A DNA stretch of 64,000 nt from Escherichia coli (GTDB lineage Bacteria; Pseudomonadota; Gammaproteobacteria; Enterobacterales; Enterobacteriaceae). Location of the stretch: the NCBI RefSeq assembly GCF_003790525.1, contig NZ_CP033635.1. One strand, given 5' to 3'. Below are positions 7,407 through 30,140 of this stretch, piece by piece (the stretch's first letter is position 1; each line of letters begins with the position of its first letter). The position numbers and the translations under genes are program-made. Under the pieces are notes generated by a model. That model saw only the letters and a program-made list of their open reading frames with translations. It was not told the origin of the DNA and made no database searches.

Positions 7407-7443
7407 TTCTTGCGTCACTCCCGCTTCAATCCGCATACGCTAA

Positions 7444-7458
7444 GCAATCGCTGTGCCA
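7444..7458 (-). promoter_or_regulatory. Sigma-54 type promoter (-24 TGGCAC / -12 TTGC) for the lfgB-J operon
   Basis: Plus strand gcaatcgctgtgcca is the reverse complement of TGGCAC-AGCGA-TTGC, about 35-50 nt upstream of the lfgB start. Confidence 0.6.
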
Positions 7459-8304: not shown

Positions 8305-8583
8305 ATGAAAATCACCCCGACGATGCCAGGCAATCGCCCGACAGCCACAATGGCAGGCTCCAGTCAGCCGCGCAAAAGCACGGCGACCACCGCCACGACG
8401 CTGAGCGCCGACGACATTACCCAGGCGGGATTGCAGTCTGCCCAGCAAACGCTGAACGACCAGCAAGAGAGCGATATCGACAGCGACAAAGTGGCGCAAA
8501 TGCAAGCGATGCTGGCGTCCGGCAGCCTGCAAGTGGACACCGAACAGTTAGCCAGCGACATGCTGAGTTTTTTCCAGAACTAA
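8305..8583 (+). CDS. lfgM: Anti-sigma-28 factor FlgM
   Basis: 92 aa; FlgM-like C-terminal region. Confidence 0.8.
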   Translation: MKITPTMPGNRPTATMAGSSQPRKSTATTATTLSADDITQAGLQSAQQTLNDQQESDIDSDKVAQMQAMLASGSLQVDTEQLASDMLSFFQN

Positions 8584-8595
8584 GAGGCCGATGAA

Positions 8596-9024
8596 GTGAG
8601 TATCCGGTTACAACAGGTGAAGGCGTTGTTGCAGGGCATTCGTGACGACGACGCACTGTACGATTCCCTGCGCGAACTTCTCCAGCGTCAGCGGATGTGC
8701 ATGATTCGCCGCGCCAGCGAAGATCTGCTGGCGGTAAACGACGAGATAACGCAGCACTATGAGCAGTTGCATGGGCATAGCCATCAGCGGCACAGCCTGC
8801 TGAAAATGCTTAATGTCAGTGTAAATCGTGACGGTCTGGCGCAGGTTTTTGCCTGGCTTCCGGCTGTGCAAAAAGCAGCAGCACAACAGTTGTGGCAACG
8901 CCTTGAGCAAAAAGCGGAACGCTGCAAAGCCTACAACGACAAAAACGGCGAGCTGTTGATTCGCCAGTATGAATTTATTCAGTCTTTTTTAGGCGGCGAA
9001 ACAGATTTTCTGTACCAGGAATAA
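8596..9024 (+). CDS. lfgN: Flagellar export chaperone FlgN (GTG start)
   Basis: 142 aa; FlgN-like; follows lfgM. Confidence 0.75.
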   Translation: MSIRLQQVKALLQGIRDDDALYDSLRELLQRQRMCMIRRASEDLLAVNDEITQHYEQLHGHSHQRHSLLKMLNVSVNRDGLAQVFAWLPAVQKAAAQQLWQRLEQKAERCKAYNDKNGELLIRQYEFIQSFLGGETDFLYQE

Positions 9025-9101
9025 CGACAATTCCTTCCCCCATCGCGGAAACGGATTTTCCGCCTGATTCTCAATCCCTTGTTTTTGATTACAAAAATTC
9101 C

Positions 9102-9117
9102 CGGCACGCTTATTGCA
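9102..9117 (+). promoter_or_regulatory. Sigma-54 promoter (cGGCACG-N4-TTGCA) driving the variable-region operon
   Basis: cggcacgcttattgca matches the -24/-12 consensus TGGCACG-N4-TTGCW at all positions but the first. Confidence 0.7.
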
Positions 9118-9151
9118 CATTCCGCAAAGTAATAAAGACTGGAAGCCACCT

Positions 9152-10081
9152 ATGAGTTTTATTGAACGTTACGAACCGGAATACGTGCGCAATTTTATGA
9201 CGCAATATCCCGATTCGCCTTTGTACGTCCGCAAGGTCTGGAAGAATGAGATTCGCCAGAGCCTGGCATTGACCGATATTGAAAGTTGCAAAGCGGTGCT
9301 CAACGATGCCAGGGCCTTTGATTTACAGCTCACCTACCGCCCTGTGGAAGACAATGCCGCCGAGCTATCCGCGCGCGATGCGATAGTAAACCAGGCCATT
9401 TTGAGCACCCTTACGCTCCCCGATTTAACCCCGGAGCTTTCCCTGTATGCCGTCGGGATTTTGCTCTCCCGCGCCAGTAAAATGCCGGGCAGAGACGGAG
9501 ATATTCTTGCCCGCTTGACGACGCTGCCACAGGCGCTGGGGGATCATGCACAAAAAGGCACGCTACAGGCACAGTTCGCCCAACTCCCACCCGTGCCACA
9601 ACTGGCGCGCCAACTGGTGACGCTGCTCGGGAGTTTTGCGTTTGACTGGTCGATTTTGCCGGAAAGCCCGCGCAAAGCCTCGCTACCGTTGCAGGTGACT
9701 TTGCTGACGTTGCATGACGCCAACAGCGAAGCTTTGTTGCAACAGCAGCTTAAGGTGCAGTGGCAAACCACCTGGCAACAGCATTTTGCCGCCGCGCCGT
9801 GGATGATGCGCAACTGGCTGATTTACCGCGTTTATCACGACGTGATTGGGCAGGCAGACGGAGCAGATTATTGCCCGCTGGTGTGTGATTTTTATCTCAT
9901 CCGCACGTTAATCAGTTTATGGACGCTGGATGGTTCACCGCTGCGGAAGGAGGATATTTTCGCCCTTTTTGCGGTGTTTGAACGCTGGCGAGAGAGTGAA
10001 AATGCTGCGGCGATTCGCCAGCAGCTCCAGTCGTTATGTGCGGCAGAGCCGCTGCTGTCAGCATTTTCGCTGCTGACGTGA
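9152..10081 (+). CDS. Hypothetical protein, Flag-2 variable region (ATG at 9152; ORF track TTG at 9113 overlaps the promoter)
   Basis: ~310 aa ORF downstream of the sigma-54 promoter; no family recognised. Confidence 0.6.
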   Translation: MSFIERYEPEYVRNFMTQYPDSPLYVRKVWKNEIRQSLALTDIESCKAVLNDARAFDLQLTYRPVEDNAAELSARDAIVNQAILSTLTLPDLTPELSLYAVGILLSRASKMPGRDGDILARLTTLPQALGDHAQKGTLQAQFAQLPPVPQLARQLVTLLGSFAFDWSILPESPRKASLPLQVTLLTLHDANSEALLQQQLKVQWQTTWQQHFAAAPWMMRNWLIYRVYHDVIGQADGADYCPLVCDFYLIRTLISLWTLDGSPLRKEDIFALFAVFERWRESENAAAIRQQLQSLCAAEPLLSAFSLLT

Positions 10082-10089
10082 GTCGCTCT

Positions 10090-10215
10090 GTGCGCGCTTT
10101 TCCCCTCCCCCTAACCCTCTCCCCAAAGGGGCGAGGGAACCGATCGAGCACGGTGTTAAAATCGGCGCTGGTTTTCTCCCTCTCCCTGTGGGAGAGGGTC
10201 GGGGTGAGGGCATCA
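10090..10215. repeat. GC-rich imperfect-palindrome repeat (boxC-like: ccctctcccc...gggagaggg)
   Basis: Related copies at 21405-21455 and 31840-31885. Confidence 0.5.
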
Positions 10216-10259
10216 GCACGCATATTCATCACATTCACCCATTAACTCACCCAAACACC

Positions 10260-12704
10260 ATGCCAACACCAACCATTATCAAAACACTCGCCACCCAGCG
10301 CGAAAAACCGTCCGTCAGCGTCATCACGCCAACCTGGAACCGCAGCGCATTCCTGCCGTACCTGCTTTATATGTACCGCTATCAGGACTACCCGGCAGAC
10401 CGCCGCGAACTCATCATCCTCGACGATTCCCCTCAAAGCCATCAACACATCATCGACCGCCTGACCAATGGCACACCGGAAGCCTTCAACATCCGCTACA
10501 TCCATCACCCGGAAAAACTGCCGCTGGGCAAAAAACGCAATATGCTCAACGAACTGGCGCGCGGCGAATACATCCTCTGCATGGACGATGACGACTACTA
10601 CCCGGCAGATAAAATCTCTTACACCATCGCTATGATGCAAAAAAACCGGGCGCTCATCTCCGGTTCCGACCAGATCCCCATCTGGTACAGCCACATCAAT
10701 CGCATCTTTCAAAGCCGCAGCTTCGGCCCGCATAACATCCTCAACGGCACCTTTTGCTATCACCGTAACTACCTGAAAAAGCACCGCTACGATGACGATT
10801 GCAATTTAGGCGAAGAGAAAAGTTTCACCGACAATTTCAGCGTTAACCCGCTACAACTGCCCGGCGAGCGCACGATTTTGTGTATCTCGCACAGCCACAA
10901 CACCTTTGATAAAGACTTTATTCTCGGGGCCAGCACGCCAGTAAACGCGACGCTTACGGATATCGTCCGCGATCCGCTGCTCCGCAATGCTTATCTGAGT
11001 CTGCATAACGCCACTCATCATCAGGCGATCCAGTATCAGGCGATCGATCAGATCGTTCTGCTGAATCTGGATAAACGCCCGGATCGCTTACAGCAGATCC
11101 GTGAAGAACTCACATTGCTGCATATTCCTCCTGAGAAGATCACCCGCCTTGCCGCCAGTGAAAATGAAAACGGTCAACGGGGCCGCCAGCAATCACACTT
11201 GCAGGCACTGCGTCTGGCGCAACAACGCGGCTGGCAAAACTACCTGCTGCTGGAAGATGACGCGGTTATTCTCAAACAGGAGAAACATATTCAGGTGCTG
11301 AACGCGCTGCTGGCGAGCCTGGCGAAAATTCCCTGGCAGGTGATGATCCTCGGCGGCGAAATTTCGCAGGGAACGATGCTAAAAAGTTTGCCTGGGCTGG
11401 TGCACGCGCGGGACTGCCGCAAAGTGTGCGCTTATCTGGTGAACCGCCGCTACTACCCGCAGCTGGCGCAGCAGATGAACAACGATGAGCATTCGCTGGA
11501 AGACGGCTGGCAGCCGCTGCTGCGCACCGACAAATGGCTGGCCTGTTACCCGAGCCTTTGTTATCAGCGACCGGGCTTTAGTGATATCGAGAAAAAAGCG
11601 ACTGATAACATTAACCACTACTTCAATAAGTTACCCGTAGCCACCAAGCCATCTACATTACCTATCGCCGATACCATCGGCTTTTTTATGGAAACCTCAT
11701 TCCACTACGCGCTCTACCGCCCAATCATCACCGCCCTGCAGGCGCAGGGGCAGAGCTGTACGCTGGTGATCAATGACCGCGTATTTAAACCATTTCTGGA
11801 TGAAATGCTGGCGACGCTAAAAAGCATCGACGATCCGCAGCTCAAAGGAATGCGCTTATCTGAAATGCAGGCACACGGTCAGCGAGTAAAATGCCTGGTC
11901 AGCCCCTATCACACGCCTGTGCTCAGTGGCCTTTCCCCCCTGAACATTCGCGCCATGTACGGCTTAGCCAAAGAAACGTGGAACCACGCCGACTGGAACC
12001 GTTTTTATCAGCGCATTTTGTGTTACAGCCACTACAGCCAGCGGGCGCTGGCACATTTCGGCAGCGCAATAGTGGTCGGCAACCCGCGCTTCGACGCCTG
12101 GCATAACGCCACGTTCGACCGCGCGTTGCCGGAAAATATCAAACTGGACGAGCGTAAACCCACCGTACTCTACGCCCCAACGTTTGGCGCATTAAGCTCC
12201 CTGCCCCACTGGGCAGAAAAATTGGGGCGCTTAAGCGATGATGTGAACCTGATTTGCAAACTGCACCACGGCACCTGCTCGCGCCCGGAAGAAGCTGCAT
12301 CGCTGGCCCTGGCTCGCAGGCATTTAAAACAGCGCACCGACTCCGCCCGTCACACGCTGGCGCTGCTGGCAAAGGCCGATTACGTGCTGACCGATAACAG
12401 CGGCTTTATTTTCGATGCTATTCACGTTGATAAGCGGGTGATCCTGCTCGACTTTCCGGGCATGGCAACGTTGCTCGACGGTGAGAAAAGTTACTCCACG
12501 CCCGAAAGCGCCGACCAGCGAATCCGCGAAATATTGCCGGTGGCTCATGATGTTGCGGAACTGCGTTATTTGTTGTCAGAGGCGTTTGACTGGGGTGCGG
12601 TGCAGGCGCGGCTTACGAAGATTCGTCATCACTATTGCGATGCGTTTATGGATGGCAAGGCGGGAGAACGGGCAGCGATGGTGATTGTGGAGGCACTAGG
12701 GTAA
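10260..12704 (+). CDS. Multidomain transferase: N-terminal GT2 glycosyltransferase, central GT25-like domain, C-terminal TagB/TagF-like CDP-glycerol glycerophosphotransferase domain
   Basis: N-terminal VSVITPTWNR...ILDDSP...MDDDDYY (GT-A/DxD); central LNLDKRPDRL (GT25-like); C-terminal VLYAPTFG...KLHHG...VLTDNSGFIFD (Glyphos_transf-like). ATG at 10260. Confidence 0.7.
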   Translation: MPTPTIIKTLATQREKPSVSVITPTWNRSAFLPYLLYMYRYQDYPADRRELIILDDSPQSHQHIIDRLTNGTPEAFNIRYIHHPEKLPLGKKRNMLNELARGEYILCMDDDDYYPADKISYTIAMMQKNRALISGSDQIPIWYSHINRIFQSRSFGPHNILNGTFCYHRNYLKKHRYDDDCNLGEEKSFTDNFSVNPLQLPGERTILCISHSHNTFDKDFILGASTPVNATLTDIVRDPLLRNAYLSLHNATHHQAIQYQAIDQIVLLNLDKRPDRLQQIREELTLLHIPPEKITRLAASENENGQRGRQQSHLQALRLAQQRGWQNYLLLEDDAVILKQEKHIQVLNALLASLAKIPWQVMILGGEISQGTMLKSLPGLVHARDCRKVCAYLVNRRYYPQLAQQMNNDEHSLEDGWQPLLRTDKWLACYPSLCYQRPGFSDIEKKATDNINHYFNKLPVATKPSTLPIADTIGFFMETSFHYALYRPIITALQAQGQSCTLVINDRVFKPFLDEMLATLKSIDDPQLKGMRLSEMQAHGQRVKCLVSPYHTPVLSGLSPLNIRAMYGLAKETWNHADWNRFYQRILCYSHYSQRALAHFGSAIVVGNPRFDAWHNATFDRALPENIKLDERKPTVLYAPTFGALSSLPHWAEKLGRLSDDVNLICKLHHGTCSRPEEAASLALARRHLKQRTDSARHTLALLAKADYVLTDNSGFIFDAIHVDKRVILLDFPGMATLLDGEKSYSTPESADQRIREILPVAHDVAELRYLLSEAFDWGAVQARLTKIRHHYCDAFMDGKAGERAAMVIVEALG

Positions 12705-12714
12705 AACGCGCAAG

Positions 12715-12830
12715 TGCCTGATGCGCTTCGCTTATCAGGCCTACGCGACCTTGCAATGTATTGAATTTGTAAGGATTTGTAGGCCGGTTAAGGCGTTTAC
12801 GCCGCATCCGGAACGAACAACGCACTTAAC
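12715..12830. repeat. REP/BIME elements
   Basis: gcctgatgcgcttcgcttatcaggcctac ... gccggttaaggcgtttacgccgcatccgg. Confidence 0.8.
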
Positions 12831-13029
12831 TACCCTCTGATTTCAAACTCATCGCTTTATGACTGGTGAATCGGTAAAAGTCGTAGATTGTGGGGGAGCG
12901 ATCTTTATGAATTCTGAAAAAACCTGAATCTTGCTAAACATATTGCTTATCATAAATATAGGTTACACACTATAACAATTATTGCGTAATTTAACATTTT
13001 GTTAAAATTGATAGGGCATAAACGATAAC

Positions 13030-13851
13030 ATGACTTATGATAAAAAAGTAACTTCCGGTACAACAAGCCAGAAACAAAACAACATTGTCACTCAAAAAAT
13101 ATCTCGCCCAAAGGAATTGTTTCTATTATTTTGGGTTGATGAGTCCGGTGATAGCCGACGTTCTATTTTTGAAGAAGCATGTCTGACGCGTTATTTCAAC
13201 ATCCTTTACTCCCCCGAGTATAAAAAAGAAACACAGATAGTTTACCATTTATCAATTAACACATTTAATCAAATCAAAGAAATATTAGAAATCTTTATAA
13301 ACAAGAATGGAGGTATAACCAAAGCAAAAGTTAAAGAAGTCAGTTTATTCTCACATGGGGGGCCAATTCATGGTCCTACAACCTCAGACTCTGTAAATAC
13401 ACCTTCCGTGCCTAAATACCCACAACAAATGGACATAATCGGAGGATGGGATTCAATTGATTTTAACTGGTCAAATAACGCTATGTTTGTTATGTATGGT
13501 TGTCGCACTAGTTATGCAAGTGATGATTCAGGACAAGGTTTTGCCAGTAAATTATCCCTATTAGATAATTTTAAGGACGTTAATGTCTGGGGACAAACAG
13601 AAAGTACTTATCCATCTTATTTCCCAGATATTAGGACAACTTCGATTATGAGGTCAATAAATATAGGTTGGTCTTTTTCACCAACATACATGGTTGCCAG
13701 TTCTGAAGGTCAAGGATGGGATGCCTTATTTCCGGATGATAAAAATCCACTAAAGTCTCTCCCTATGCAGTGTTATAATAATGGGAAATTGATTTTAACC
13801 TGCGATCAAAGCAGTTTTAATGATCACCGGAAGAATAAATCAAATGATTAG
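13030..13851 (+). CDS. Hypothetical protein, strongly AT-rich gene; possible alpha/beta-hydrolase-like fold (tentative)
   Basis: 273 aa; AT-rich codon usage unlike neighbours; motifs LFLLFWVDESGDS, VSLFSHGGP, MYGCRTSYASDDSG, C-terminal DH; own AT-rich upstream region. Confidence 0.55.
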   Translation: MTYDKKVTSGTTSQKQNNIVTQKISRPKELFLLFWVDESGDSRRSIFEEACLTRYFNILYSPEYKKETQIVYHLSINTFNQIKEILEIFINKNGGITKAKVKEVSLFSHGGPIHGPTTSDSVNTPSVPKYPQQMDIIGGWDSIDFNWSNNAMFVMYGCRTSYASDDSGQGFASKLSLLDNFKDVNVWGQTESTYPSYFPDIRTTSIMRSINIGWSFSPTYMVASSEGQGWDALFPDDKNPLKSLPMQCYNNGKLILTCDQSSFNDHRKNKSND

Positions 13852-14383
13852 TATTATATTGAGAAGCTTGATTCTATTATTCATGATAATAGTGTATCCA
13901 GATTATAATAAAAACCTACCTGCCTTTGAAGTATATGGGGAAAATGACATACTTAAGGATATGGTTATTAATATGAAAACTTATAGTAACCATAGTAAGA
14001 AAAACTCTTCCCCAACAACTATAGTGCAAACCATCCTTTTTAAAGGGAATATACAGCAAGTTTTTGAAAGCAACGATATGGGTGCAGAGAGCTTCTTTTT
14101 TTCTTATAATAACAAGGTTGAAACGCTGGTAACAGACGCTTTCTTTTTGAATAGAAAATTAGACAAACTGCATGATGCAAATATTTTTGAAGTTATAAAG
14201 CATGGGGAAAATATCGTTATTAGATATTACAAATGCAAAATTGAATATATGAAAAAAGAAAAATCTATCGAAATAGAGATATCAACAAACAAAAACAGTT
14301 ATTTTAGCAAAAATGGAATAAAACAAAAAGACACAAATAAATATAACACATATTTCTTCAATTACTTTGAGGCTCAAAAATAA
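13844..14383 (+). CDS. Hypothetical membrane-anchored or secreted protein, AT-rich; partner of upstream gene (ATG at 13844; start overlaps upstream stop)
   Basis: N-terminal hydrophobic segment MISIILRSLILLFMIIVY; Lys/Asn-rich; ATGATTAG start/stop overlap. Confidence 0.5.
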   Translation: MISIILRSLILLFMIIVYPDYNKNLPAFEVYGENDILKDMVINMKTYSNHSKKNSSPTTIVQTILFKGNIQQVFESNDMGAESFFFSYNNKVETLVTDAFFLNRKLDKLHDANIFEVIKHGENIVIRYYKCKIEYMKKEKSIEIEISTNKNSYFSKNGIKQKDTNKYNTYFFNYFEAQK

Positions 14384-14394
14384 ATTTTATTTTG

Positions 14395-14790
14395 TCATGC
14401 TTTCCCCCTAATCACCTCAATAATCCCCGTCGTCGACACCGACGGCGTGCGGGGGAAATACACTACCTCACAAATATACGCGAAGCTGTCAAACTTTCCT
14501 GCCCAGTCATCGCCCATCACTAAAATATCCGCACTGTACCCCCGCAGATACTCCGCTTTCTGCTCCAGCGACTCTTCCAGAAATACGCCATCCACGCACG
14601 CCAGCCCGGCGATGATCGCCATGCGGTCATCCTGAGGGTAAACCGGTGCCCTGCCCTTTTTGGCGATGTTCAGGGCATCGGACGATACGCCGACCAGCAG
14701 CCGTTCGCCCAGCGTGCGGGCGCGTTGTAAAAGGCGCAGATGACCGACATGAAACACATCGAAGGTGCCGAAGGTGATGACCGTTTTCAT
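14395..14790 (-). CDS. Cytidylyltransferase, glycerol-3-phosphate cytidylyltransferase (TagD)-like
   Basis: 131 aa; ITFGTFDVFHVGH (HxGH nucleotidyltransferase motif); start 2 nt after lfiJ stop (TAGCCATG). Confidence 0.8.
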   Translation of the reverse strand: MKTVITFGTFDVFHVGHLRLLQRARTLGERLLVGVSSDALNIAKKGRAPVYPQDDRMAIIAGLACVDGVFLEESLEQKAEYLRGYSADILVMGDDWAGKFDSFAYICEVVYFPRTPSVSTTGIIEVIRGKA

Positions 14791-14792
14791 GG

Positions 14793-15227
14793 CTACTCCG
14801 CTAACTTATGCCGCAGCCAGCACTGGACGGCGATGTCATCCACCGCTTTTTGCGCTTTCGCCGTGGCACTTTCTTGCTGCTCGCGGCGTTTGTCGTCCAA
14901 CGTCAGGGCCACCACTTTCTCTTCGCACGCCGCCGCCGTCAGGTTTTTCTGCATTCGCGTGGCTTTGATGTTAGCCAGCGTTTTTTCCTGCTCCTGCCAG
15001 GCGATCACCTTGCGCAAGGTGCCTTTGTAGTCGCTGACGTTTTTCAGCGATTCCACCGACGCTGCCGCGCCCGCAGATGTTTTCTCCACCAGGTAGCCTA
15101 ATGCTTTGATATTGTTGTCATAACCCGCACAAATCTGTTTTTGCTTTGCCAGCTCGACGGTTTTGTCTTTGACCGATTTATCCCGCAGGCGCTGCAACTG
15201 CGCCAGGGTGTCGATGATTTGTCGCAT
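14793..15227 (-). CDS. lfiJ: Flagellar export protein FliJ
   Basis: 144 aa, charged coiled-coil-like protein directly downstream of fliI. Confidence 0.75.
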   Translation of the reverse strand: MRQIIDTLAQLQRLRDKSVKDKTVELAKQKQICAGYDNNIKALGYLVEKTSAGAAASVESLKNVSDYKGTLRKVIAWQEQEKTLANIKATRMQKNLTAAACEEKVVALTLDDKRREQQESATAKAQKAVDDIAVQCWLRHKLAE

Positions 15228-15229
15228 GG

Positions 15230-16567
15230 TTACTGTTCTGCCTTTTTGACGCCAGGAAAGAGAATTTGCAGGCGGCTTTGCACCAGTTCGAGGGAGGCGG
15301 GTTCGCGCATCTCCTGGCGCAAAAAACGCTCGATAGCCGGGAACATTTTCACCGCTTTGTCGACGCTGGCGTCCGCGCCTGCCACATAACCGCCGAGTGG
15401 GATCAGCGGTTTGATCTCCATGTAGGCGGCGTAGTTTTGCTTTAACGCGCGGGCGGATTGCTGATGTTCCAGGCTGGTGACCTGGTTCATGCAGCGGCTG
15501 ATCGACTGGCCGATATCAATGGCCGGATAATGCCCCGCTTCCGCCAGTTTGCGGGTTAATACGATATGCCCGTCCAGCACCGCACGGGCGCAGTCGACAA
15601 TCGGATCTTGCTGGTCGTCGCCTTCCGCCAGCACGGTGTAGATGGCAGTCATCGATCCCGCGCTTTCGCTGTTGCCTGCGCTTTCGACCAGTTTGGGGAT
15701 CATGCCGAATGCCGACGGCGGATAGCCTTTGGTGGCGGGTGGTTCGCCAAGCGAGAGCGCAATTTCACGCTGCGCCATCGCATAGCGGGTCAGGGAATCC
15801 ACCAGCAGTAAAACGTGATGCCCGCGGTCGCGAAACCAGGCGGCGACGGAGTGGCACAGTTCGGTGGCTTTCAGGCGCATCAGCGGCGATTCATCGGCGG
15901 GCGCGACGACGACGATAGACTTCGCCAGCCCGTCCGCGCCCAGTGAGTGGTCGATAAACTCTTTCACTTCGCGCCCGCGTTCGCCAATCAGCCCGACCAC
16001 CACGATGTCGGCTTTGGTCTGGCGGGTGATCATCCCCAGCAGCACGCTTTTCCCGACGCCGCTGCCCGCCATCAGCCCGACACGCTGGCCTTTGCCGATG
16101 GTCAGCAGGCCGTTGATCGCTTTCACGCCCACGTCCAGCGGTTCGTCCACCGAACGGCGGGTTAAGGGATTAACCGACGGCGGCAGCGGCGGCAGAAGGT
16201 CGTTGCCGTTCAGGCGGCCTTTGCCATCCAGCGGTTCGCCGAGGCCGTTAACCACGCGGCCTAACCAGCTTTCGCCAATCAGGATGTCGTGGGCTTTTTC
16301 TTCCGGGAAGACGCGCGCCCCCGCCATCAGGCCGACCGGCTGTTTAAACGGCATTAAGTAAGTGATATCGCGATTAAAGCCTACGGCCTGCGCGTCGATA
16401 AGCGTGTGGTTGGCGCTTTCGATGCGACACAGCTGCCCGGTCATTAGCGGGCAGCCGACGCTCTCCAGCAGGATGCCATTAAGGCGCACCAGCCGCCCGG
16501 CGACGCGGGCCAGCGGGATCGACTCCAGCGAGCGCAGGGCGTTATCGAAAGCGGAAAAATCACTCAC
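15230..16567 (-). CDS. lfiI: Flagellum-specific ATP synthase FliI
   Basis: 445 aa; Walker A GSGVGKS; FliI/T3SS ATPase family. Confidence 0.95.
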   Translation of the reverse strand: MSDFSAFDNALRSLESIPLARVAGRLVRLNGILLESVGCPLMTGQLCRIESANHTLIDAQAVGFNRDITYLMPFKQPVGLMAGARVFPEEKAHDILIGESWLGRVVNGLGEPLDGKGRLNGNDLLPPLPPSVNPLTRRSVDEPLDVGVKAINGLLTIGKGQRVGLMAGSGVGKSVLLGMITRQTKADIVVVGLIGERGREVKEFIDHSLGADGLAKSIVVVAPADESPLMRLKATELCHSVAAWFRDRGHHVLLLVDSLTRYAMAQREIALSLGEPPATKGYPPSAFGMIPKLVESAGNSESAGSMTAIYTVLAEGDDQQDPIVDCARAVLDGHIVLTRKLAEAGHYPAIDIGQSISRCMNQVTSLEHQQSARALKQNYAAYMEIKPLIPLGGYVAGADASVDKAVKMFPAIERFLRQEMREPASLELVQSRLQILFPGVKKAEQ

Positions 16568-29862: not shown

Positions 29863-30140
29863 ATGATTCAAAGGGATATTGAATACTCGGGACAATTTTC
29901 AAAGGATGTAAAACTTGCACAAAAGCGTCATAAGGATATGAATAAATTGAAATATCTTATGACGCTCTTATCAATAATACTTTACTGCTTCCAGCTGTTT
30001 ATAAAGACCACCCGCTGCAAGGTTCATGGAAAGGTTATCGCGATGCTCATGTCGAACCGGACTGGATCCTGATTTACAAACTTACCGATAAACTTTTACG
30101 ATTTGAGAGAACTGGAACTCACGCGGCGCTATTTGGGTAA
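29863..30140 (+). pseudogene. yafQ: yafQ toxin gene disrupted by a frameshift (apparent 1-nt deletion near codon 36-37)
   Basis: N-terminal frame encodes MIQRDIEYSGQFSKDVKLAQKRHKDMNKLKYLMTLL then diverges and stops at 30072; another frame from about 29970 encodes INNTLLLPAVYKDHPLQGSWKGYRDAHVEPDWILIYKLTDKLLRFERTGTHAALFG and stops at 30140. Confidence 0.8.

What the first reader, a model, noticed from the sequence alone, without database searches (positions are those of the whole stretch)
9102..14790. Predicted CDP-glycerol-dependent modification system inside the lateral flagellar locus
Between lfgN and lfiJ, three genes point to a glycerol-phosphate/glycan modification pathway. The first is a gene of unknown function (9152-10081). 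The second is a ~815-aa enzyme with three fused domains: GT2 (DxD, MDDDDYY), a GT25-like centre, and a TagB/TagF-like C-terminus (VLYAPTFG, KLHHG). The third is a TagD-like cytidylyltransferase (HxGH, FDVFHVGH) whose start lies 2 nt after the lfiJ stop. The first two sit behind a near-consensus sigma-54 promoter, the class expected for LafK-dependent flagellar genes. Co-regulation and coupling with flagellar genes suggest the target is a lateral flagellar component, most plausibly flagellin, but that is inference. I do not recall glycerol-phosphate modification being described for Flag-2 flagellin.
Basis: partly seen in the sequence, partly recalled or inferred. Interest (0 to 1): 0.82.

Follow-up and report, generated by a model that had tools for sequence, protein, structure and literature searches.

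The report
Lateral-flagellum glycan/glycerol-phosphate modification genes, already described
Inside the second (lateral, Flag-2) flagellar locus of E. coli SMS-3-5 sit three conserved genes that most likely decorate the lateral flagellin with sugars capped by glycerol-phosphate. This reading is well supported in silico, but it was already published as a genomic prediction in 2020 and has never been tested experimentally.

Summary
The window is E. coli SMS-3-5, and the stretch is variable region VR1 of Flag-2, between lfgN and lfiJ.

- **TagD-like gene:** 46.5% identical to B. subtilis TagD over its full length; its ATG lies 2 nt after the lfiJ stop.
- **814-aa enzyme:** three domains. These are GT2, a GT25-like centre (best structural match is human COLGALT1, with the EDD motif kept), and a divergent TagF-like C-terminus (subfamily profile against TagF, TarL and Cps3D gives E 1e-12 to 1e-15).
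- **The "unknown" gene:** it is LafV, a FliB_C-family protein. It lacks FliB's Fe-S motif, so it is probably not a methylase.
a 1.6-kb AT-rich insertion with two extra ORFs.

Comparative evidence supports the pathway. Paramixta carries the same four functions as separate genes after lfiJ. Burkholderia, Plesiomonas and a Firmicute pair related enzymes with other CDP-donor pathways next to flagellin or motor genes. GT and tagD occur together in about 1278 of 5426 complete E. coli genomes and are under purifying selection.

De Maayer et al. 2020 already reported TagD, TagB and GT2-1 in VR1 and proposed teichoic-acid-like flagellin glycans. Only the fused TagF-like domain and the doubt about LafV are new here. 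The target and chemistry remain inferred.

The parts
9102..9117 (+). Sigma-54-type promoter-like site (CGGCAC-N5-TTGCA). Its -12 element lies 35 nt upstream of the lafV ATG.
   Evidence: It is the only match with at most 1 mismatch in the window. Exact GGCAC-N5-TTGC occurs only here and before lfgB within the Flag-2 part of the window. The site is identical in E. coli O111:H8 and kept as GGCAT-N5-TTGC in an otherwise diverged Citrobacter-like locus. RpoN or LafK dependence was not tested.
9152..10081 (+). lafV: a FliB C-terminal-domain (PF27117) family protein, 309 aa.
   Evidence: NF038110 FliB gives E 5.7e-10 but only 39 bits against a cut-off of 85, and covers profile positions 106-367 only. 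Homologues carry PF27117 and the names 'lysine-N-methylase' or 'lateral flagellar associated protein'. There is no CX4CX3CC motif (PMC8598068). The AF2 model has pLDDT 90.5 and no solved structural relative.
10095..10225 (.). GC-rich palindromic intergenic repeat between lafV and the glycosyltransferase gene (approximate bounds).
   Evidence: The sequence is. It accounts for matches of the region in 5425 of 5426 E. coli genomes, with a median of 8 places per genome.
10260..12704 (+). Trifunctional enzyme gene (814 aa): a GT2 domain, a GT25-like domain and a TagF-like domain.
   Evidence: RefSeq WP_012311637.1 is named 'glycosyltransferase'. The AF2 model has pLDDT 80.5 and three domains. A 61%-identical homologue is named 'bifunctional glycosyltransferase family 2 protein/CDP-glycerol:glycerophosphate glycerophosphotransferase'. 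dN/dS is 0.13.
10299..11009 (+). GT2 (GT-A) domain, residues about 14-250, with DDS 55-57 and DDDD 109-112.
   Evidence: Pfam PF00535 E 9e-18. PDB GT2 hits reach E 2e-9. The Asp motifs are nearly invariant in alignment A1.
11049..11624 (+). Central GT25-like GT-A domain, residues about 264-455, with the EDD motif at 332-334.
   Evidence: The top Foldseek hits are human COLGALT1/GLT25D1 (E 1e-17, about 550 aligned columns covering both GT-A domains). PF01755 hits the Plesiomonas-type homologues P0085 and P0087. EDD is the catalytic metal motif of the COLGALT1 GT25 domain (PMC12003778). There is no direct Pfam GT25 hit on this sequence.
11676..12701 (+). TagB/TagF-like (Glyphos_transf, GT-B) domain, residues about 473-814, with YAPT 638-641, KLHH 667-670 and TDNSG 711-715.
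   Evidence: Pfam PF04464 E 3.7e-5. A subfamily profile against PDB gives Cps3D 9e-16, TagF 4e-15 and TarL 2e-12. Foldseek matches TagF and TarL at E 2e-8. H669, Y567, P640 and D712 are invariant across diverse relatives.
12716..12812 (.). REP/BIME-type repeats downstream of the glycosyltransferase gene.
   Evidence: The sequence is. The same element is present in E. coli O111:H8, where it directly abuts the tagD 3' end.
12813..14394 (+). AT-rich (about 32% GC) insertion with two hypothetical ORFs (13030-13851, 273 aa; 13844-14383, 179 aa). It is not part of the conserved module.
   Evidence: Composition is. The insertion is present in 144 of about 1278 Flag-2-positive E. coli genomes and absent from the typical locus L003. 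The only family hit is a weak DUF4347 match, E 6e-4. NCBIfam, PADLOC and PHROGs give nothing useful.
14395..14790 (-). tagD-like cytidylyltransferase (131 aa), last gene of the lafK-lfiEFGHIJ transcription unit.
   Evidence: B. subtilis TagD (1COZ) matches at E 2.7e-32 over the full length with 46.5% identity. TIGR01518 scores 114 bits, below the cut-off of 165. The ATG lies 2 nt after the lfiJ stop. dN/dS is 0.13.
14793..15227 (-). lfiJ (FliJ homologue), translationally adjacent to tagD.
   Evidence: TIGR02473 E 2.6e-15; annotation.

Best explanation
This is variable region 1 of the E. coli Flag-2 (lateral flagellar) locus. It encodes a cytoplasmic flagellin-decoration module.

Proposed steps:

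1. TagD converts CTP and sn-glycerol-3-phosphate into CDP-glycerol (inferred from 46.5% full-length identity to a solved TagD).
2. The 814-aa enzyme uses its GT2 and/or GT25-like GT-A domains to put one or two sugars from housekeeping UDP-sugars onto the Ser/Thr-rich exposed region of lateral flagellin LafA, before export (inferred).
3. The enzyme's TagF-like C-terminal domain transfers glycerol-phosphate from CDP-glycerol onto that glycan. The product is either a single cap or a short alternating sugar/glycerol-phosphate chain (inferred).
4. LafV always accompanies this glycosyltransferase and lacks FliB's Fe-S catalytic motif. It is most likely a flagellin-recognition or accessory partner rather than a lysine methylase (inferred).

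Expression is tied to flagellar assembly. lafV and the glycosyltransferase gene sit behind a sigma-54-type promoter like that of lfgB. tagD is translationally adjacent to lfiJ at the end of the lafK-lfiE-J operon. The genes and domains are shown; the promoter activity is inferred.
For: **Domains and folds:**

**Gene fusion and fission ('Rosetta stone'):** Paramixta has lfiJ > two-domain GT (478 aa) > FliB_C > TagD-like (145 aa) > stand-alone Glyphos_transf (414 aa).

**Co-variation of the third domain with the lfiJ-side gene:** a KpsC/S-type C-terminus goes with hexapeptide-repeat acetyltransferase (Hexapep) and GT25 genes and no tagD.

**Related enzymes next to flagellin or motor genes, each with a different CDP-donor pathway:**
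- Burkholderia: GT + FliB_C + methyltransferase + HAD + IspD-like + Glyphos_transf immediately upstream of flagellin.
- Plesiomonas: NTP_transferase + GATase + PPDK-like genes.
- A Firmicute: flagellin > GT2-TPR-Glyphos_transf > phosphonate and cytidylyltransferase genes.

**Experimental precedent:** the TagF-like CD0244 is required to add the phospho-linked moiety to GlcNAc on C. difficile FliC (PMC10714395).

**Distribution:** GT occurs in 1279 and tagD-lfiIJ in 1278 of 5426 complete E. coli genomes.

**Selection:** dN/dS is 0.08-0.21 for all genes and domains.

**Locus integrity:** Flag-2 in SMS-3-5 has no annotated pseudogenes.

**Substrate features:** the LafA centre is 33% Ser/Thr and has no lysine between residues 93 and 233.

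**Promoter:** position, geometry and conservation.
Against: - No experiment exists on Flag-2 flagellin modification in the searched literature.
- TagD is below the NCBIfam equivalog cut-off. B. subtilis K46 and W74 are replaced by G and L.
- The TagF catalytic base H444 (WHG motif) has no clearly conserved counterpart. HMMER aligns it to residue 551, which is His in Escherichia but Tyr in most genera. The invariant residue nearby is Y567.
- The GT-B domain resembles UDP-GlcNAc 2-epimerases as well as it resembles TagF by structure alone.
- lafA is about 13 kb away and outside the window.
- The sigma-54 motif alone is not statistically significant.
- A repeat element with a weak terminator-like hairpin separates lafV from the GT gene.
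- Conditions under which E. coli expresses Flag-2 are unknown.
Confidence: 0.55

Rival explanations
1. The architecture is the same but the phospho-donor differs. The TagD-like enzyme activates another phospho-alcohol (for example phosphoethanolamine or another polyol phosphate), and the TagF-like domain transfers that group rather than glycerol-phosphate.
For: TIGR01518 scores 114 bits against a cut-off of 165. K46 becomes G and W74 becomes L relative to B. subtilis TagD. An ethanolamine-phosphate cytidylyltransferase is the third-ranked PDB hit (E 4e-16). Relatives of the TagF-like domain clearly work with varied CDP-donors in other loci.
Against: The match to two solved TagD enzymes is full-length, with far better scores than to any other cytidylyltransferase (E 2.7e-32 and 4.8e-27). 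HxGH, K44, D95/W96, R114/T115 and the STT motif are retained. No extra donor-synthesis genes sit in the E. coli VR1, unlike in the loci that use exotic donors.
Confidence: 0.15
2. The module acts on something other than flagellin. Candidates are an envelope glycan (an LPS, ECA or capsule-like teichoic-type polymer) or another exported flagellar protein, with its place in Flag-2 reflecting hitch-hiking cargo.
For: Classical TagB/TagF enzymes and the TagF-like capsule polymerase Cps3D work on lipid-linked or capsule polymers. One relative of the C-terminal domain sits in an ABC-transporter O-antigen-type cluster. VR1 is a known hotspot for cargo genes. lafA is not adjacent.
Against: The region has no transporter, polyprenyl-phosphate glycosyltransferase or polymer export genes. 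The GT + FliB_C pair is flagellum-linked in every locus inspected (6 of 6), including directly upstream of flagellin in Burkholderia. Presence with Flag-2 in E. coli is essentially one-to-one.
Confidence: 0.12
3. The genes are functionally silent passengers of a cryptic locus. Flag-2 is rarely or never expressed in E. coli, so the module has no current phenotype.
For: From my own recollection of Ren et al. 2005, which I could not read here, Flag-2 in E. coli 042 carries an lfgC frameshift and no lateral flagella were seen. No expression data were found in the literature. The GT gene has no obvious Shine-Dalgarno sequence.
Against: All three genes are intact in about 1277 genomes. dN/dS is 0.13-0.20, comparable with lfgN at 0.11. 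The SMS-3-5 Flag-2 locus has no annotated pseudogenes.
Confidence: 0.1
4. LafV is a genuine flagellin lysine-N-methylase, as databases name it, acting independently of the glycosylation genes.
For: It shows significant similarity to FliB (E 5.7e-10). NCBI names homologues 'lysine-N-methylase'. De Maayer et al. make the same assumption.
Against: FliB activity requires a [4Fe-4S] cluster bound by the N-terminal CX4CX3CC motif (PMC8598068). LafV lacks that whole segment and the motif. Its score of 39 bits is below the cut-off of 85. LafA has only six lysines and none in its exposed central region. The gene is tightly paired with the two-domain GT across Enterobacterales and Burkholderia.
Confidence: 0.08

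Closest known systems
Flag-2 variable region 1 (VR1) flagellin-modification cargo, as catalogued by De Maayer, Pillay & Coutinho 2020 (BMC Genomics 21:100)
   Same: This is the same locus, between lfiJ and lfgN, with the same genes: GT2-1 (828 aa, 222 strains), TagD (133 aa, 235 strains) and LafV. The hypothesis is also the same, namely teichoic-acid-type glycopolymer on the Flag-2 flagellin glycan.
   Different: That paper annotated GT2-1 only as pfam00535 and listed TagB1-8 as separate proteins of 354-379 aa in 65 strains. The fused TagF-like C-terminus, which explains why TagD far outnumbers stand-alone TagB, and the COLGALT1-like double GT-A core were not noted there. It also took LafV to be a methylase.
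Clostridioides difficile type A flagellin glycan cluster (CD0240-CD0244)
   Same: Both have a glycosyltransferase, a nucleotidyltransferase that makes a CDP-activated phospho-donor, and a TagF-like transferase that adds the phospho-linked group to the flagellin-bound sugar. A CD0244 mutant leaves bare GlcNAc on FliC (PMC10714395). The Burkholderia relative of the E. coli GT sits in a cluster of just this composition.
   Different: The C. difficile donor is proposed to be CDP-threonine (with HAD-type and methyltransferase genes), not CDP-glycerol. Its enzymes are separate proteins and it has no FliB_C partner. The cytidylyltransferases belong to different families.
TagF-like multi-domain capsule polymerases of Gram-negative bacteria (e.g. 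Actinobacillus pleuropneumoniae Cps3D, PDB 8qoy) and wall teichoic acid enzymes TagF/TarL
   Same: Cps3D is the best solved sequence relative of the C-terminal domain (E 9e-16). TagF gives 4e-15 and TarL 2e-12. Cps3D is a multi-domain chain of 1149 residues in which the TagF-like segment matched here spans residues 537-735. From my own recollection, not checked here, it also carries a glycosyltransferase domain.
   Different: Those enzymes build long polymers on lipid or capsule acceptors and use the WHG catalytic histidine. Here that histidine is not clearly conserved, the sugar-transferring domains are GT-A (GT2 and GT25-like) rather than GT-B, and the context is flagellar with no export machinery.
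Human collagen hydroxylysine galactosyltransferase COLGALT1/GLT25D1 (GT25)
   Same: It is the top structural match (E 1e-17) over about 550 aligned columns. Both have two tandem GT-A domains, the second of GT25 type with an EDD metal motif, and COLGALT1 glycosylates a protein side chain.
   Different: Sequence identity is only 12-13%. The origin is bacterial and cytoplasmic. There is an extra TagF-like domain, and the acceptor residue is unknown.
Salmonella FliB flagellin lysine-N-methylase
   Same: LafV matches the C-terminal about 260 residues of FliB (FliB_C).
   Different: LafV lacks the N-terminal [4Fe-4S]-binding CX4CX3CC motif that is essential for methyl transfer.

Membership tests
Glycerol-3-phosphate cytidylyltransferase TagD (TIGR01518 / cd02171) | HxGH nucleotidyltransferase motif | tested here: met
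   H14-V-G-H17 is present, in FDVFHVGH at residues 10-17.
Glycerol-3-phosphate cytidylyltransferase TagD (TIGR01518 / cd02171) | Full-length similarity to biochemically and structurally defined TagD | tested here: met
   1COZ gives E 2.7e-32 over residues 1-129 with 46.5% identity. 2B7L gives E 4.8e-27.
Glycerol-3-phosphate cytidylyltransferase TagD (TIGR01518 / cd02171) | Score above NCBIfam's curated equivalog cut-off | tested here: not met
   The score is 114 bits against a cut-off of 165.4.
Glycerol-3-phosphate cytidylyltransferase TagD (TIGR01518 / cd02171) | Residues equivalent to B. subtilis K44, K46, W74 and the RTEGISTT motif (assignment of their roles is from memory) | tested here: inconclusive
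   K44, R113, T114, S118 and T119 are kept. K46 becomes G (flanked by K45 and R47) and W74 becomes L.
Glycerol-3-phosphate cytidylyltransferase TagD (TIGR01518 / cd02171) | CTP plus sn-glycerol-3-phosphate yields CDP-glycerol | not testable with these tools
   This needs an enzyme assay.
TagB/TagF CDP-alcohol phosphotransferases (Pfam PF04464 Glyphos_transf) | Pfam domain match | tested here: met
   E 3.7e-5, covering model positions 159-290 of 367 only. Eleven members of the 28-sequence alignment, not all of which carry the C-terminal domain, match at E<=1e-3, with the best at 3.6e-8.
TagB/TagF CDP-alcohol phosphotransferases (Pfam PF04464 Glyphos_transf) | Sequence-profile relation to solved family members | tested here: met
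   The subfamily profile A3 gives Cps3D 9e-16, TagF 4e-15 and TarL 2e-12. The next hit is at E 0.014.
TagB/TagF CDP-alcohol phosphotransferases (Pfam PF04464 Glyphos_transf) | GT-B-like two-Rossmann fold | tested here: met
   The AF2 model covers residues 473-814. Foldseek matches TagF 3l7l (E 2e-8, TM 0.58) and TarL. UDP-GlcNAc 2-epimerases match equally well by fold.
TagB/TagF CDP-alcohol phosphotransferases (Pfam PF04464 Glyphos_transf) | Donor-side histidine (mutated in TagF entry 3l7m; I recall this residue as H584) and the YAPT / (S/T)D-x-S motifs | tested here: met
   H669 in KLHH is 100% conserved in 80 diverse relatives. P640, T641, D712 and S714 are conserved at 88% or more. All are aligned to the TagF and TarL motifs.
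TagB/TagF CDP-alcohol phosphotransferases (Pfam PF04464 Glyphos_transf) | Catalytic base histidine (TagF H444 in the WHG motif; TarL H300) | tested here: inconclusive
   HMMER aligns H444 with residue 551, which is His in Escherichia and Tyr in most other genera. The invariant residue in this region is Y567, in RxxYGxxK. The segment 568-604 is modelled with low confidence.
Glycosyltransferase family 2 (PF00535, GT-A) | Domain match plus DxD-type Asp motifs | tested here: met
   E 9e-18. D55-D56-S57 and D109-D112 are nearly invariant.
Glycosyltransferase family 25 (PF01755) | Pfam domain match on this protein | tested here: not met
   There is no hit even at E<=10. PF01755 is hit only in the 39-40%-identical homologues P0085 and P0087, with the best at E 5e-6.
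Glycosyltransferase family 25 (PF01755) | GT25-type fold and EDD metal motif | tested here: met
   The top structural matches are COLGALT1 structures (E 1e-17). E332-D333-D334 lies in LLLEDDAV. EDD is the catalytic motif in COLGALT1. The motif degenerates to LDD or LDA in some two-domain homologues.
FliB flagellin lysine-N-methylase (NF038110) | N-terminal CX4CX3CC [4Fe-4S] motif essential for methyl transfer | tested here: not met
   LafV starts at FliB profile position about 106 and has no such motif (PMC8598068).
FliB flagellin lysine-N-methylase (NF038110) | Score above the curated cut-off | tested here: not met
   The score is 39.3 bits against 85.
FliB_C domain family (PF27117) | Domain match | tested here: met
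   There are precomputed PF27117 hits on homologues 88-92% identical and on the partners of the GT in Burkholderia, Serratia, Paramixta and L007. The Pfam copy behind profile_search returned no match.
Sigma-54 (RpoN)-dependent promoter | -24 GG and -12 GC elements with canonical spacing, correctly placed and conserved | tested here: met
   The site is CGGCAC-N5-TTGCA, 35 nt before the ATG. The lfgB site lies 37 nt before its annotated start. The GG/GC core is conserved in L003 and L007. The motif count alone is not above chance.
Sigma-54 (RpoN)-dependent promoter | Transcription dependent on RpoN and the LafK activator | not testable with these tools
   This needs reporter or primer-extension experiments. 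LafK, a protein with a sigma-54 interaction domain, is encoded in the locus.

The most novel reading that the evidence does not exclude
The 814-aa enzyme, recruited to flagellin by the Fe-S-less FliB_C protein LafV, acts like the TagF-like capsule polymerases and builds an alternating sugar/glycerol-phosphate (teichoic-acid-like) chain directly on LafA. This would be the first protein-linked teichoic-acid-type polymer, and the first glycerol-phosphate flagellin modification, in a Gram-negative bacterium. The enzyme core would be a bacterial counterpart of the collagen glycosyltransferase COLGALT1.
Probability: 0.15. Interest if true: 0.75.

Novelty: already known. Interest (0 to 1): 0.35.

Why it matters
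If confirmed, about a quarter of complete E. coli genomes (about 1278 of 5426), plus many Citrobacter and Enterobacter, would carry the capacity to put an anionic glycerol-phosphate-bearing glycan on a second flagellar filament. That chemistry is so far unknown on any flagellin. It could affect filament surface charge and recognition by the immune system or by phages. The comparative picture also suggests a general rule that could guide glycoproteomics: a protein glycosyltransferase plus a TagF-like transferase plus an interchangeable CDP-donor pathway, sitting next to flagellin genes. It also flags the database name 'lysine-N-methylase' for LafV as probably wrong. The basic hypothesis is already in print, so the added value here is refinement rather than discovery.

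Tried and rejected
- **Single-sequence search of the 814-aa protein against PDB:** it found only GT2 relatives. A first profile of close homologues gave only a marginal TarL hit. A broader subfamily profile was needed.
- **Direct Pfam scan for GT25 on the E. coli protein:** negative.
- **Locating the TagF catalytic histidine:** the attempt ended ambiguous, with H551 and the invariant Y567 as candidates.
- **Stand-alone Burkholderia Glyphos_transf:** it is only distantly related to the E. coli C-terminal domain (22% identity, E 0.02), so it is an analogue rather than an orthologue.
- **The two AT-rich island ORFs:** NCBIfam and PADLOC gave nothing for either. PHROGs gave only one marginal unknown-function match for ORF4 (E 0.021). 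Pfam, run on ORF3 only, gave only a weak DUF4347 hit.
- **Rfam:** nothing found in 8500-15400.
- **The hairpin after lfgN:** not more stable than shuffled sequence.
- **Ren et al. 2005 (PMC545627):** could not be read.
- **Reading the module as a defence or mobile element:** rejected. It has no such hits, is fixed in Flag-2-positive E. coli and is under purifying selection.

Full report
**Identity of the region.** The window is the E. coli SMS-3-5 chromosome (NC_010498.1), matched at 100% identity. The finding lies in the Flag-2 lateral flagellar locus. The annotated order is:
- lfgA-lfgM-lfgN on the + strand;
- a hypothetical protein, then a 'glycosyltransferase', then two more hypothetical proteins;
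- on the opposite strand, an 'adenylyltransferase/cytidyltransferase family protein', then fliJ-fliI-fliH-fliG-fliF.

The window holds only the lfhA to lfgD part of Flag-2. lafA lies about 13 kb beyond its start.

**Check of the observation.**
- The large ORF (10260-12704, 814 aa) has Pfam GT2 at E 9e-18 and a partial Glyphos_transf match at E 3.7e-5. It has no GT25 hit.
- The small ORF (14395-14790, minus strand) has CTP_transf_like at E 1.9e-19. It matches B. subtilis TagD (1COZ) over its whole length at E 2.7e-32 and 46.5% identity. Its TIGR01518 score of 114 bits is below NCBI's equivalog cut-off of 165.
- Its ATG lies 2 nt after the lfiJ stop codon, and a GGAG sits inside the lfiJ 3' end.

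- ORF1 (9152-10081) is not unknown. It matches the C-terminal about 260 residues of FliB. Its homologues carry Pfam PF27117 (FliB_C) and the names 'lysine-N-methylase' or 'lateral flagellar associated protein', that is, LafV.
- A 1.6-kb, 32% GC insertion with two more ORFs lies between the glycosyltransferase gene and tagD.

**The sigma-54 site.** CGGCACGCTTATTGCA (9102-9117) is the only match in the window with at most one mismatch to TGGCACG-N4-TTGCA. About 0.56 such matches are expected by chance in 64 kb, so the motif alone proves nothing. Context supports it.
- Within the Flag-2 part of the window, exact GGCAC-N5-TTGC occurs only here and upstream of lfgB.
- Both sites place the -12 element 35-37 nt before the start codon.
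- The GG/GC core survives as GGCAT-N5-TTGC in a Citrobacter-like locus whose intergenic region is otherwise diverged.
- A sigma-54 activator, LafK, is encoded in the locus.

A GC-rich repeat of about 120 bp, with a weak terminator-like hairpin, separates lafV from the glycosyltransferase gene in E. coli. In the Citrobacter-like locus the gap is only 48 bp. Co-transcription is likely but not shown.

**Architecture of the 814-aa enzyme.** An AlphaFold2 model built from 28 homologues (mean pLDDT 80.5) shows three domains: 14-250, 264-455 and 473-814.
- **N-terminal two domains.** The best Foldseek matches in the PDB are structures of human collagen hydroxylysine galactosyltransferase COLGALT1/GLT25D1 (E 1e-17, about 550 aligned columns). 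The first two domains therefore reproduce that enzyme's tandem GT-A architecture.
- **Central domain.** It keeps an EDD motif (residues 332-334). EDD is the unusual metal-binding catalytic motif of the COLGALT1 GT25 domain (PMC12003778). Pfam GT25 hits the 39-40%-identical Plesiomonas-type homologues. 'GT25-like centre' is therefore supported by fold, motif and transitive homology, but not by a direct profile hit.
- **C-terminal domain.** It has a GT-B fold that resembles TagF and TarL, and UDP-GlcNAc 2-epimerases equally well. Sequence profiles discriminate between these. An HMM search of 1.84 billion representatives found 2764 relatives. A profile of 36 diverse relatives hits the TagF-like capsule polymerase Cps3D (9e-16), TagF (4e-15) and TarL (2e-12), with nothing else below E 0.01.
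- **Conserved residues.** The YAPT, K-L-H-H and TDNSG motifs align to the family's donor-site motifs, and H669 is invariant in 80 diverse relatives.
- **Catalytic base.** The counterpart of TagF H444 (WHG motif) is not clear. HMMER aligns it with residue 551, which is His in Escherichia and Tyr elsewhere. The invariant residue in that region is Y567, next to a conserved segment modelled with low confidence.

I therefore file the domain as a divergent TagF-superfamily member with an unresolved catalytic residue.

**Comparative genomics.** This is the strongest evidence for function.
- In Paramixta the same functions are separate genes in one string after lfiJ: a two-domain GT (478 aa), FliB_C, a TagD-like protein (145 aa) and a stand-alone Glyphos_transf (414 aa). 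This is the unfused form of the E. coli system.
- In a Citrobacter-like locus the third domain is instead KpsC/S-type (Capsule_synth). There tagD is replaced after lfiJ by GT25 and hexapeptide-repeat acetyltransferase (Hexapep) genes. The TagF-like domain and tagD therefore co-vary.
- In Burkholderia oklahomensis the two-domain GT and FliB_C are followed by a methyltransferase, a HAD hydrolase, an IspD-like nucleotidyltransferase and a Glyphos_transf protein, immediately upstream of a flagellin gene and motAB.
- That gene set mirrors the C. difficile type A flagellin glycan cluster. There the TagF-like CD0244 is required to add the phospho-linked moiety to FliC-bound GlcNAc (PMC10714395).
- A Plesiomonas homologue of 841 aa sits beside NTP-transferase, GATase and PPDK-like genes, close to motAB. 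From memory, that trio resembles the Campylobacter phosphoramidate pathway.
- A Firmicute GT2-TPR-Glyphos_transf fusion follows a flagellin gene and precedes phosphonate and cytidylyltransferase genes.

The recurring theme is a protein glycosyltransferase plus a TagF-like transferase plus an interchangeable CDP-donor pathway. In E. coli the donor pathway is a single TagD orthologue, which points to CDP-glycerol.

**Population data.**
- The glycosyltransferase gene is present in 1279 of 5426 complete E. coli genomes, and tagD-lfiJ-lfiI in 1278.
- The typical VR1 is just lafV, GT and tagD.
- Between SMS-3-5 and an O111:H8 strain, dN/dS is 0.20 for lafV, 0.13 for the GT gene (0.08, 0.21 and 0.11 for its three domains) and 0.13 for tagD.
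- No Flag-2 gene of SMS-3-5 is flagged as a pseudogene.

The module is maintained by selection and is not decaying.

**LafV.** FliB's methyl transfer depends on a [4Fe-4S] cluster held by the N-terminal CX4CX3CC motif (PMC8598068).
- LafV lacks that entire segment.
- A confident model (pLDDT 90.5) has no solved structural relative.
- LafA has no lysine between residues 93 and 233, while that region is 33% Ser/Thr.
- LafV-type genes are adjacent to the two-domain GT in every locus examined except Plesiomonas.

I infer an accessory or flagellin-recognition role rather than methylation.

**Literature.** De Maayer et al. 2020 (PMC6993521) defined VR1 between lfiJ and lfgN. They listed GT2-1 (828 aa, 222 strains, annotated only as pfam00535), TagD (235 strains), stand-alone TagB1-8 (65 strains) and LafV1-10. 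They concluded that teichoic-acid-type glycopolymers form part of the Flag-2 flagellin glycan. NCBI already names a 61%-identical homologue 'bifunctional glycosyltransferase family 2 protein/CDP-glycerol:glycerophosphate glycerophosphotransferase'. No experimental study of Flag-2 flagellin modification was found.

The increments here are:
- the fused TagF-like domain, which explains why TagD far outnumbers stand-alone TagB;
- the COLGALT1-like core;
- the doubt about LafV's name;
- the cross-phylum pattern of swapped donor pathways.

**Verdict.** The feature is real and its interpretation is plausible. I put about 0.55 on glycerol-phosphate-decorated glycan on LafA. It is already described as a prediction, and its interest lies mainly in being an untested, readily testable hypothesis.

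Noticed in passing
window 12813-14394: A 1.6-kb insertion of 32% GC lies between the REP element after the glycosyltransferase gene and the 3' end of tagD. It carries two hypothetical ORFs (273 aa and 179-187 aa) convergent with tagD. It occurs in only 144 of about 1278 Flag-2-positive E. coli genomes. The 273-aa protein has a weak DUF4347 hit and FSHGG...YGCRT motifs reminiscent of a His/Cys dyad. No boundary repeats were found.
   Followed up: partly
window 10095-10225 and 12716-12812: A GC-rich palindromic repeat lies between lafV and the GT gene, and REP/BIME elements lie after the GT gene. These account for matches of the region in 5425 of 5426 E. coli genomes (median 8 places per genome). 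The repeat family was not identified, and the repeat could modulate lafV-GT co-expression.
   Followed up: partly
window 7443-7458 (- strand): A second sigma-54-type site (TGGCACAGCGATTGCT) lies upstream of lfgB. It has the same distance to the start codon as the lafV site.
   Followed up: partly
L007 8001-10628; L006 8001-15618; L010 6077-16501: Homologues swap the third domain or the donor pathway. One is a KpsC/S-type (Capsule_synth) fusion with neighbouring GT25 and hexapeptide-repeat acetyltransferase (Hexapep) genes. A Plesiomonas enzyme sits beside NTP-transferase, GATase and PPDK-like genes, which from memory resemble the Campylobacter phosphoramidate pathway. A Firmicute GT2-TPR-TagF-like fusion sits next to flagellin with phosphonate genes.
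   Followed up: partly
window 11910-11912 (residue 551) and 11958-11960 (residue 567): Residue 551, aligned by HMMER with the TagF catalytic His444, is His in E. coli and E. ruysiae but Tyr in E. albertii, Citrobacter, Enterobacter and others. Tyr567 is invariant across the whole subfamily.
   Followed up: partly
L013 11230-12144 (NC_010498.1 287229-288143, outside the window): Lateral flagellin LafA has only six lysines, all in the terminal conserved regions. Its lysine-free centre is 33% Ser/Thr. This fits O-glycosylation and argues against surface lysine methylation.
   Followed up: yes
window about 29863-30140 (yafQ); NC_010498.1 295944-296343 (yafO, outside the window): The toxin genes yafQ (of dinJ-yafQ) and yafO (of yafN-yafO) that flank Flag-2 are both annotated as frameshifted pseudogenes in SMS-3-5.
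   Followed up: no
hit H60, NZ_CP026085.1: A record labelled 'E. coli DH5alpha' carries a full-length copy of the Flag-2 glycosyltransferase gene. This is unexpected for a K-12 derivative and suggests a mislabelled strain.
   Followed up: no
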